A stretch of 64,000 nt of DNA from the NCBI RefSeq assembly GCF_000002075.1, contig NW_004797367.1, positions 803,278-867,277 on the forward strand. Reading direction: 5' to 3'. The notes beneath the pieces are model-generated. The model saw nothing but the letters and a program-made list of their open reading frames with translations. It had not been told where the DNA came from and ran no database searches. Source of the DNA: Aplysia californica (Eukaryota). Position 1 is the stretch's first letter, and each line of letters starts with the position of its first letter. The position numbers and the translations under genes are program-made. Shown piece by piece: positions 1 through 3,200 of this stretch.

Positions 1-205
1 GGGCGCACCCTCCAAGACTCGAGCTCCGAGTTCCTCCATTCACCCACGCCCGGGCGGCCAGAGATCTGCCGGTGGAGAATCTCCGCTACTCACGGCGAGA
101 AGATCGTGCTGAACGTCACACGGCTGGACATCCCTCAGTCCTACAACTGTGAGACGGACTACCTGGAGGTCAGGGACGGCTACTACATCAAGTCGCCTCT
201 GCTGG
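1..205 (+). CDS. BMP1: tolloid-like exon, CUB1 N-half (5' end cut by window)
   Basis: Frame 1 [11 protein letters not shown]...[46 protein letters not shown]; donor GTCAGT at 206, phase 1. Confidence 0.92.
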
Positions 206-3200
206 GTCAGTTGAGTGTTACAATATTATTATTATTATAGTGTATGTATTATAGGTCTAGTGTAATGGAAGTAATATCGCCTCTTCTGGGTCAGTGGAGT
301 GTTACAGTATATTGGTCATATAGTCAAATCTCCTAGGTCAGTTGAGTGTTACAATGAAGAGCTCTAGTGTTCGTTTGTATTTAGGTCTAGTGTTATTTAA
401 TCCTCTCCGTACAGCGTGTTTCATTATCATATCCATACAACGTAAGCAACTCTGTGCCGCCACTTTCAAAAAAGGAAATTTACTCGTTAATCCGATGTGT
501 ACGCTTTGCATAGCAGTCTGTCAAAATTATTTTTTTGAGAAATACTGAAAGTTTCAAAGAGATCTTTGTACTAGAAGTATTCTAAAATGTCGTGAGGAAT
601 ACAACCTTGGTGGTACAAAATGATCCCAGGACGTACGGATAGGGTTAAGTAAAGTAGCCTCTACTGGGTCAGTTGACTATGAAAGTATAGAGGTCTAGTG
701 TTATTTAAGTAAAGTTGCCTTTACAGTATATAGGTCTAATGTTGTTTAAGTAAAGGCGCCTTTTCTGGGTCAGTTGAGTGTTACAGTATATAGGTCTAGT
801 GTTATTTAACTGGGACAGTTTAGTGTTACAGTATAATATAGATCTAGTGTCATTTAAGGAAAGGCGCCTCTTCTGGGTCAATTGAGTGTTAAAGCTTGGT
901 GTTGTATTAGAGTACAATCGATTTTAACCTGATTTCACCGTCACATAATGTATAAGACACCTGCAAAAATAGCTTAATGTTCAGAGTAGATGTCAGCATC
1001 TGGGAAGAAATAGTTGAGGACAGGAAAACATGAAGGAAAATAATAAAAAAGGAAAGAACTATTATGCTAGAGAGCAGCCTCAGAAACAACCAGGCTGGGA
1101 AGCGCCAAAGACGAAAGAAAAACAGTGAAAATACAGAGCTTCGATCCACCTCACTGGCATGCAATCTCTGCGACAAATATTGCACTTCAAAATAGGAAAA
1201 GTTACCCTTGAAAAAAGTTTCATGAAGACAACCGTAAGACCATCTCAAGCTAAATTGACCGTCTGCAGAAACGAAAATAGCCATTGAATGGATAAGACCA
1301 CATCATGTACAAACGACACTTTTCATTTCTCCTTTTGCGTTTATTTGTTTTAGAATTAAAATGATACTGTGTAAGACGTCCACATGTCCAACTCGGCCGT
1401 TTTTTTCTCCCAGACAACTGATCATTAGATTGCTTTCTTAGACAATTTTGACTGCATGTATTATTTGTATATGTGGCATTGTGAATAACATGCTATTTGT
1501 TTGCCGCATTATGAATAGTACATGAATGTTATTTGTCATGTGAAATTATATTTAGTGTGTTACTTGTTAATGTGAGATCGTGTACGTTCAGCATTTTTCT
1601 TGTTTATGTGGCAGTATCTATGCAGTGTTCGGTTGTCAGGCGCAGTAGCTTTTTGTGAGTGACTGAAAGTGGGAATGGGTGAGTGAGTGACTGNNNNNNN
1701 NNNNNNNNNNNNNNNNNNNNNNNNNNNNNNNNNNNNNNNNNNNNNNNNNNNNNNNNNNNNNNNNNNNNNNNNNNNNNNNNNNNNNNNNNNNNNNNNNNNN
1801 NNNNNNNNNNNNNNNNNNNNNNNNNNNNNNTTTTCCAGGACGTTTTTGCGGTGAGTTGATCCCGGACACACTGACGTCATCAGGCACCCGGATGTGGATA
1901 GAGTACAGGACAAGAAATGGCGGCGGCAAAGGTTTCAACGCAGCCTACGAAGGTAAATATGGTCATAATACATTTTGTTGCGTTCAGACAGTGCAGTAGA
2001 TTATTATAATCCTCACCCCCTCTNNNNNNNNNNNNNNNNNNNNNNNNNNNNNNNNNNNNNNNNNNNNNNNNNNNNNNNNNNNNNNNNNNNNNNNNNNNNN
2101 NNNNNNNNNNNNNNNNNNNNNNNNNNNNNNNNNNNNNNNNNNNNNNNNNNNNNNNNNNNNNNNNNNNNNNNNNNNNNNNNNNNNNNNNNNNNNNNNNNNN
2201 NNNNNNNNNNNNNNNNNNNNNNNNNNNNNNNNNNNNNNNNNNNNNNNNNNNNNNNNNNNNNNNNNNNNNNNNNNNNNNNNNNNNNNNNNNNNNNNNNNNN
2301 NNNNNNNNNNNNNNNNNNNNNNNNNNNNNNNNNNNNNNNNNNNNNNNNNNNNNNNNNNNNNNNNNNNNNNNNNNNNNNNNNNNNNNNNNNNNNNNNNNNN
2401 NNNNNNNNNNNNNNNNNNNNNNNNNNNNNNNNNNNNNNNNNNNNNNNNNNNNNNNNNNNNNNNNNNNNNNNNNNNNNNNNNNNNNNNNNNNNNNNNNNNN
2501 NNNNNNNNNNNNNNNNNNNNNNNNNNNNNNNNNNNNNNNNNNNNNNNNNNNNNNNNNNNNNNNNNNNNNNNNNNNNNNNNNNNNNNNNNNNNNNNNNNNN
2601 NNNNNNNNNNNNNNNNNNNNNNNNNNNNNNNNNNNNNNNNNNNNNNNNNNNNNNNNNNNNNNNNNNNNNNNNNNNNNNNNNNNNNNNNNNNNNNNNNNNT
2701 ACCTACCTACCTACCTACCTACCTACCTACCTACCTACCTACCTACCTACCTACATTGCTCTATGTTGGGTTTTGTGTGTCCGTGTAGCTATCTGCGGCG
2801 GAGAGATCACCAGAGAGGAAGGGTTCCTCACCTCCCCCAACTACCCAGATGACTACCGGCCCGACAAGGTCTGTGTGTGGAAAATCACCGTGGGGCCAGA
2901 CTTCACCGTGGCCCTCAAGTTCCAGTCTTTCGAGGTAGGTTTCTTCCCCTGACAATGGCGTCTCTTTTTCTCTGTATGTGTATTACGCGCTCGCAACTGC
3001 ATACGGTCATATGAGCACGCGGGACACTTTAAACATTTTCAATTGGTTGGAAATTTTGAATTTTGCCCAAGTGGTGGCCAAGCCTACCCTTATCGATTTT
3101 GGACCACCAAGGGATCTTTAACGTGTGCAACTTCCATACGGGACGTCTTCAATTTTTCGCTTTTATCCGAGAAGGCTAGGTGATAGAACTTACCTACCAT

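What the first reader, a model, noticed from the sequence alone, without database searches (positions are those of the whole stretch)
190..895. Intronic tandem array built from the gene's own exon end and 5' splice donor
Seen: the ~60 bp unit of this array starts inside the tolloid exon (AAGTCGCCTCTGCTGG) and runs through the donor GTCAGT into the intron. Seven to eight degenerate units follow, and five keep CTGG|GTCA or CTAG|GTCA (GT at 290, 337, 668, 769, 877). Inference: the real donor competes with a ladder of near-identical copies, which could act as decoys, U1 binding sites or cryptic donors. The array apparently arose by slippage or duplication centred on a splice junction.
Basis: partly seen in the sequence, partly recalled or inferred. 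Interest (0 to 1): 0.7.

Follow-up and report, generated by a model that had tools for sequence, protein, structure and literature searches.

The report
Splice-donor "mirage" repeat split by transposon
In a snail-type tolloid gene, the end of an exon and its splice signal are repeated in decaying copies inside the next intron and interrupted by a small transposon; the few spliced RNAs seen use only the original signal, so the copies are likely harmless leftovers of a known kind that also sits behind about 6 in 100 predicted splice donors sampled in this genome.

Summary
The array is real: a 60-bp unit holding the last ~16 exon bases and the donor, nine units in all, five copies keeping GT (290, 337, 668, 769, 877). 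One RNA contig and one read splice 205 to 1839 and a second contig stops at the same exon end; no pseudo-donor joint appeared, but depth was too low to exclude minor use. Any pseudo-donor use would keep an in-frame stop (238-240). Donor cores are not significantly better kept than neighbouring bases. This is a lancelet-type "mirage" / human F7-intron-7-type repeat, where downstream copies stay silent. The scan has reported this class before, in this genome and in others. The wider result: 18 of 300 predicted donors carry such copies, against 4 of 297 acceptors and 0.9% of intronic positions; the excess is weaker in the replication half (5 of 159) and 7 cases come from one contig. Verdict: new member of a known kind, most likely neutral; the donor-versus-acceptor bias deserves a genome-wide count.

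The parts
1..205 (+). 3' part of a tolloid/BMP1-like exon (first CUB domain); its start lies before the window
   Evidence: Pfam CUB E 2.5e-9; 71-81% identical to gastropod tolloid-like proteins; RNA contigs X13 and X17 cover 1-204 with 0 differences
203..211 (+). authentic donor TGG|GTCAGT, GT at 206, phase 1
   Evidence: joint 205 to 1839 with GT..AG ends in contig X13 and one X23 read; 47th percentile of a donor matrix made from this genome
190..273 (+). unit 1: exon end, donor, lengthened by a (TAT)n run
238..240 (+). in-frame TAG met by any use of a downstream pseudo-donor or by intron retention
   Evidence: translation
274..320 (+). unit 2, pseudo-donor GT at 290 (9-mer identical to the real one)
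321..376 (+). unit 3, pseudo-donor GT at 337 (TAG|GTCAGT, scores slightly above the real donor: 10.0 against 8.7)
377..400 (+). 3' half of a unit without donor; ends in the TTAA target site (397-400)
401..644 (.). 244-bp non-autonomous piggyBac-like MITE, terminal inverted repeats CCCTATCCGTAC, TTAA on both sides (397-400, 645-648)
   Evidence: 46 matches from 40 scored of 3738 candidates in G000, about 88% identical; 14 other copies inspected, mostly TTAA-flanked in unrelated DNA
395..414 (+). acceptor-like site in the left end of this MITE copy (AG at 413-414); with the donor at 668 it would define a 253-nt frameshifting pseudo-exon 415-667; no RNA support
   Evidence: acceptor matrix score 9.0, 45th percentile of 328 predicted acceptors; the other copies lack this AG
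649..708 (+). unit 4, pseudo-donor GT at 668
709..749 (+). unit 5, 19-bp deletion removes the donor
750..809 (+). unit 6, full 60-bp unit, pseudo-donor GT at 769
810..857 (+). unit 7, exon part lost, GT changed to GA
858..905 (+). unit 8, weak pseudo-donor GT at 877 (GTCAAT; one contig of run X5 reads G at 881)
1839..1952 (+). next exon (G-R-F-C-G..., rest of first CUB domain); acceptor AG 1837-1838

Best explanation
This is a decaying tandem repeat whose first unit is the real exon end and splice donor of a gastropod tolloid gene, split by a small inserted transposon, and its extra donors are likely silent passengers because the spliceosome would keep taking the first donor it meets. Shown: unit structure, locus-specific origin, MITE insertion into a unit's TTAA, splicing at the first donor in the RNA seen, a stop codon behind the first donor. 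Inferred: a 60-bp stretch across the junction was duplicated by slippage or unequal exchange and amplified; the MITE came later; point changes and deletions are eroding the copies; the upstream-most donor wins (as shown for human F7), and rare mis-spliced RNA would carry a premature stop and likely be degraded. Such repeats would be tolerated at donors but purged more often at acceptors, where the copy comes first in the transcript.
For: Unit unique to the locus. Removing the MITE and one TTAA restores a normal unit junction. X13 contig (3847 nt, depth 24) and one X23 read join 205 to 1839; X17 contig also ends at 204 and neither contig set covers 205-340 or 681-952. Three of eight copies lost the GT; donor core not significantly better kept than the rest. 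In 18 other donor-spanning duplications GT mismatch is 0.048 against 0.09 for flanks, the 1:2 ratio expected if only the first unit's GT is under selection (the expectation is my inference). No copy at the other 13 predicted donors of this gene nor at 8 donors of its paralogue. F7, lamin B2, PDGF and lancelet mirages splice only at the authentic site.
Against: RNA depth is very low (one junction read in about 3 billion letters of X23 plus X24), and contigs drop rare forms, so minor or regulated use is untested. In human 6-16 and CBS the two nearest pseudo-donors are used. Donor cores in the index array differ less than flanks (2 of 42 against 25 of 168), in the direction of conservation though not significant; across 18 cases the GT-versus-flank test gave p = 0.038 before allowing for the selected first unit. 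The array looks stable in two other samples rather than visibly turning over. The neutral model does not by itself explain why donors exceed intronic background about sevenfold.
Confidence: 0.8

Rival explanations
1. The nearest copies (290, 337) are used as minor alternative donors, giving unproductive, stop-containing RNA that tunes the protease's level.
For: 9-mers equal to or stronger than the real donor; all uses hit the stop at 238-240; precedent in human 6-16 and CBS (introduction passage).
Against: No joint from any pseudo-donor in four RNA data sets that cover the exons (X13, X17, X23, X24), though with little power; no sign of selection on the copies.
Confidence: 0.1
2. The MITE's left end supplies an acceptor and unit 4 supplies the donor, making a 253-nt poison exon (415-667).
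For: Acceptor-like site of median strength at 413-414, absent from the 14 other copies shown; donor at 668 identical to the real one; inclusion shifts the frame and adds stops.
Against: No 205-to-415 or 667-to-1839 joint; four changes in 14 bases are not far above a 12% diverged copy's expectation; reads on the MITE come from other copies and leave the locus at 648.
Confidence: 0.05
3. The copies are kept as extra U1 snRNP landing sites that strengthen exon definition or suppress premature polyadenylation in the intron.
For: Five of six complete cores keep GT; 65 of 75 copies keep GT in the genome sample; two poly(A) hexamers lie downstream in the intron (1042, 1355).
Against: The real donor is of median strength; the intron is only 1633 nt; GT retention matches neutral decay; the other 13 donors of the gene, some ahead of introns of about 10 kb, have no copies.
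Confidence: 0.05

Closest known systems
Lancelet 'mirage' minisatellites (Adh3, troponin C, globins BflGb6 and BflGb9, PGBD5); PMC3087553 and PMC3902484, matching passages read
   Same: Tandem duplication across an exon-intron boundary, unit 10-160 bp, many but not all units keep the splice signal, normal splicing reported; the PGBD5 copies are also imperfect.
   Different: Here a gastropod; older and more decayed; split by a MITE; no copy-number difference seen between samples, whereas lancelet mirages vary in length.
Human F7 intron 7 37-bp VNTR; PMC1557585, abstract, introduction and part of results/discussion read
   Same: First unit spans the exon and donor; downstream donors identical to the real one; only the upstream-most is used.
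   Different: F7 copies are strictly identical and polymorphic (5-9 units) and were tested in 50 constructs; here units are degenerate and nothing is tested.
Human 6-16 intron 2, CBS intron 13, lamin B2 and PDGF intron 4 minisatellites (known to me only through the introduction of PMC1557585)
   Same: Donor-spanning minisatellites.
   Different: 6-16 and CBS use the two nearest pseudo-donors as well; no such use seen here.
Non-autonomous piggyBac elements (TTAA target site, CCC-ended inverted repeats; defining features recalled)
   Same: TTAA duplication, short terminal inverted repeats starting CCC, no coding capacity, high copy number.
   Different: No transposase with the same ends found among the 30 loci examined.

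Membership tests
mirage / donor-spanning minisatellite | first unit spans a real exon-intron boundary | tested here: met
   RNA joint 205 to 1839; unit holds about 16 exon bases plus the donor
mirage / donor-spanning minisatellite | head-to-tail copies continue into the intron and arose locally | tested here: met
   eight further units; unit unique to the locus
mirage / donor-spanning minisatellite | copies keep the splice signal | tested here: met
   5 of 8 keep GT
mirage / donor-spanning minisatellite | normal splicing at the authentic site | tested here: met
   two RNA contigs from two studies and one read; minor forms not excluded
VNTR (F7 type) | copy number varies between alleles | tested here: inconclusive
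   X6 contigs 174-489 (0 differences) and 663-1013 (1), X5 contigs 202-352 (0) and 663-1266 (2): no length change in two samples; contigs drop rare alleles
VNTR (F7 type) | pseudo-donors are usable when the first is destroyed | not testable with these tools
   needs a minigene
non-autonomous piggyBac MITE (401-644) | TTAA target-site duplication | tested here: met
   397-400 and 645-648; TTAA on one or both sides of most of 14 other copies
non-autonomous piggyBac MITE (401-644) | terminal inverted repeats beginning CCC, short non-coding interior, many copies | tested here: met
   10 near-full copies in 633,471 sampled bases
non-autonomous piggyBac MITE (401-644) | autonomous partner with the same ends | tested here: inconclusive
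   122 PF13843 matches in G000; none of the 30 fetched loci carries a clear match to the repeat; 92 not examined
intron gain by tandem duplication of a proto-splice site | unit supplies both a donor and a usable acceptor so that repeats become a new intron | tested here: not met
   unit-derived AGs score at or below the 8th percentile of acceptors and all in-array exons carry stops

The most novel reading that the evidence does not exclude
5' splice sites in this genome are hot spots for local tandem duplication: about 6% of donors (contig bootstrap 2-11%) carry downstream copies of themselves, several times the rate at acceptors and at ordinary intronic positions. That would point to a transcription- or U1-coupled mutational process anchored at donors, plus a first-come rule that lets donor copies survive, leaving thousands of natural F7-like test cases in one invertebrate genome.
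Probability: 0.3. Interest if true: 0.6.

Novelty: new member of a known kind. Interest (0 to 1): 0.27.

Why it matters
The single locus matters little: it is an ordinary, decaying example of a described repeat type. The class may matter more. If a full count confirms that donors carry self-copies several times more often than acceptors, the genome offers thousands of natural experiments on how the spliceosome chooses among identical donors outside mammals, raw material for donor shifts and poison exons, and a pitfall for gene annotation and short-read mapping.

Tried and rejected
Array as a dispersed repeat that only resembles the exon end: rejected, the unit occurs only here (that search skips very common words). 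Whole 190-895 as one array: rejected, 401-644 is a MITE. RNA signal over 409-680 as expression of the intron: rejected, reads differ from this copy at many fixed places and leave at 648. Age from a related species: run X21 (organism C) gave no match to the exon at 80% and X16 (organism B) held only repeats, so no information. No listed holder was on record as RNA. Kinase hits (0 of 132 used) and long P450 hits were unusable for the junction sample because they are mostly single long reading frames. A rise in array ends 45-60 nt upstream of acceptors in set 1 (8 of 133, 9 of 139) did not repeat in set 2 (2 of 135, 1 of 134): dropped. U1 duplex energies added nothing to the matrix scores. Paper searches for a genome-wide count or a donor/acceptor bias of such repeats listed none by title or abstract start; the library lacks most subscription papers, and the original Adh3 paper was not seen. 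(tolloid in a gastropod model) was seen as a listing only and not used.

Full report
Observation. The window opens in an exon that encodes part of a CUB domain of a tolloid/BMP1-like protease; its best named relatives are gastropod proteins at 71-81% identity, and exons of the astacin, CUB and EGF domains map in order from about 7.7 kb upstream to 22.2 kb. The exon ends at 205, GT at 206. Alignment to a 60-bp unit gives nine units: the first (190-273, with a TAT run), 274-320, 321-376, a 3' half (377-400), 649-708, 709-749 (donor deleted), 750-809, 810-857 (GT to GA) and 858-905. Four copies match the junction 30-mer at 25 of 30 or better, which 0 of 2000 shuffles did. The unit has 3 matches in G000, all at this locus.

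Positions 401-644 are a 244-bp element with inverted ends CCCTATCCGTAC between two TTAA (397-400, 645-648). It has 3738 candidates in G000, 40 scored, about 88% identical; 14 other copies sit in unrelated flanks, mostly with TTAA; 10 near-full copies lie in 633,471 sampled bases. It landed in the TTAA at the end of a unit, so it is younger than the array (inference). TTAA and CCC ends are piggyBac traits (recalled); G000 has 122 piggyBac transposase matches but none of 30 fetched loci shares these ends.

Splicing. Contig X13 (3847 nt, depth 24, no differences) and one X23 read join 205 to 1839 with GT..AG ends; X24 shows no joint. No joint starts at a pseudo-donor. Power is poor: the raw runs have under 3 reads of depth on these exons and contigs drop rare forms. 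A donor matrix built from 167 of 177 predicted donors puts the real site at the 47th percentile; 290, 668 and 769 are the same 9-mer, 337 is slightly stronger, 877 weak. Every pseudo-donor would retain the in-frame TAG at 238-240, 49 to 636 nt before the new junction. The left end of this MITE copy happens to form an acceptor of median strength, which with donor 668 would give a 253-nt frameshifting exon; there is no RNA support.

Variation. In two other samples the array is the same length where covered: X6 174-489 with 0 and 663-1013 with 1 difference, X5 202-352 with 0 and 663-1266 with 2, one of which turns the last copy's GTCAA into GTCAG. X6 bridges the MITE's left junction. Within the array the donor core differs from consensus at 2 of 42 sites, the rest at 25 of 168 (p = 0.12).

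Is it a one-off? I sampled exons by Pfam search of G000. Set 1: 72 of 72 myosin hits, 55 of 83 CUB hits (whole-domain hits in long frames and this gene's own exons left out), 50 of 93 P450 hits (long single-frame hits left out). Set 2, run with the same matrices and thresholds: 79 of 86 SNF, 8 of 14 AMP-binding, 112 of 126 kinesin hits, of which 180 of 199 had enough flank. Splice sites were predicted, not taken from RNA. Test: a copy of the 30-mer across the junction (11 of 15 on each side, 25 of 30 overall) within 700 nt on the intron side. Donors: 13 of 141 and 5 of 159. Acceptors: 3 of 149 and 1 of 148. Together 18 of 300 against 4 of 297, Fisher p = 0.004. Intronic background: 113 of 13,022 positions are the first unit of a repeat (0.9%), 324 have any downstream copy (2.5%). 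Swapping donors onto other loci gave 0 of 2729. In set 1 the rate peaks at the junction and falls to background by 60 nt into the intron. Against this: set 2 alone is not significant for donor versus acceptor (p = 0.22) or versus any-copy background (p = 0.25), only versus first-unit background (p = 0.003); 7 of the 18 come from one contig; without the two richest contigs it is 9 of 275 against 2 of 277 (p = 0.036), and p = 0.08 against the any-copy background; a bootstrap over contigs gives 2-11% for donors and 0-3% for acceptors. Six of the 18 are single copies, several with long units, and one has a doubtful predicted donor. GT survives in 65 of 75 copies, at about half the mismatch rate of flanks, which is what neutral decay gives when only the first unit's GT is held by selection (inference). 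The other 13 predicted donors of this gene and 8 of a paralogue have no copies.

Mechanism. Most likely (0.8) a neutral, locally born repeat that survives because the authentic donor comes first. For human F7, constructs showed that identical downstream donors are functional but not chosen (PMC1557585; abstract, introduction, one results passage and the start of the discussion read). The same order rule would make upstream acceptor copies harmful and so rarer, which fits the sample (inference). Why donors exceed the intronic background is open: an anchored first unit decays and is deleted more slowly, which could explain part of it; a donor-linked mutational process could explain the rest.

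Known kinds. Lancelet mirages are described as tandem duplications of exon-intron boundaries that do not disturb splicing, at both boundaries (PMC3087553 and PMC3902484, matching passages only; supplements not opened). The term was pointed out to me by earlier scan notes and then checked. The scan has reported this class in other genomes and once in this one. My paper searches (listings) showed no genome-wide count or donor/acceptor comparison.

Verdict. Observation confirmed with one large omission, functional reading unsupported, new member of a known kind. Interest 0.27, mostly for the genome-wide donor bias.

Noticed in passing
window 401-644; G000 genome-wide: Abundant 244-250 bp TTAA MITE family (10 near-full copies per 633 kb sampled, so roughly 15,000 if the sample is typical); widely present in poly(A) RNA reads and also in organism B's contigs (X16).
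   Followed up: partly
G000:C619:356957-440367 (L182-L191), many-CUB gene: 7 of 20 predicted donors carry downstream copies of their own exon end; one has 14 copies of a 48-bp unit (exon at 395337).
   Followed up: partly
L148 (G000:C479, exons at 18440 and 22325), L179 (C57:129605), L270 (C116:907471), L336 (C1014:6411): Further donor-spanning arrays of 2-11 copies in myosin, SNF transporter and kinesin genes.
   Followed up: partly
L178 (C600:466802), L199 (C95:1301783), L184 (C619:382669), L237 (C184:1150777): Longer duplications (180-450 nt spacing) that copy 60-70 or more exon bases plus the donor into the intron; possible pseudo-exon material.
   Followed up: no
window about 950-1300: Two or more other dispersed repeats in the same intron (very high contig depth).
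   Followed up: no
window 56651-56331, minus strand: Reading frame with a thioredoxin-like YAPWC motif, likely an exon of a neighbouring gene (label recalled).
   Followed up: no
window 36989-36441 minus strand and 49671-49366 minus strand: Two long GC3-rich reading frames, likely exons of another gene; not identified.
   Followed up: no
G000 kinase search: More than 100 long single-frame kinase matches, many near-identical in clusters, suggesting large expansions of intron-poor kinase genes.
   Followed up: no
G000:C46 about 1424000-1438000: A second tolloid-like gene; no donor copies at 8 predicted donors.
   Followed up: partly
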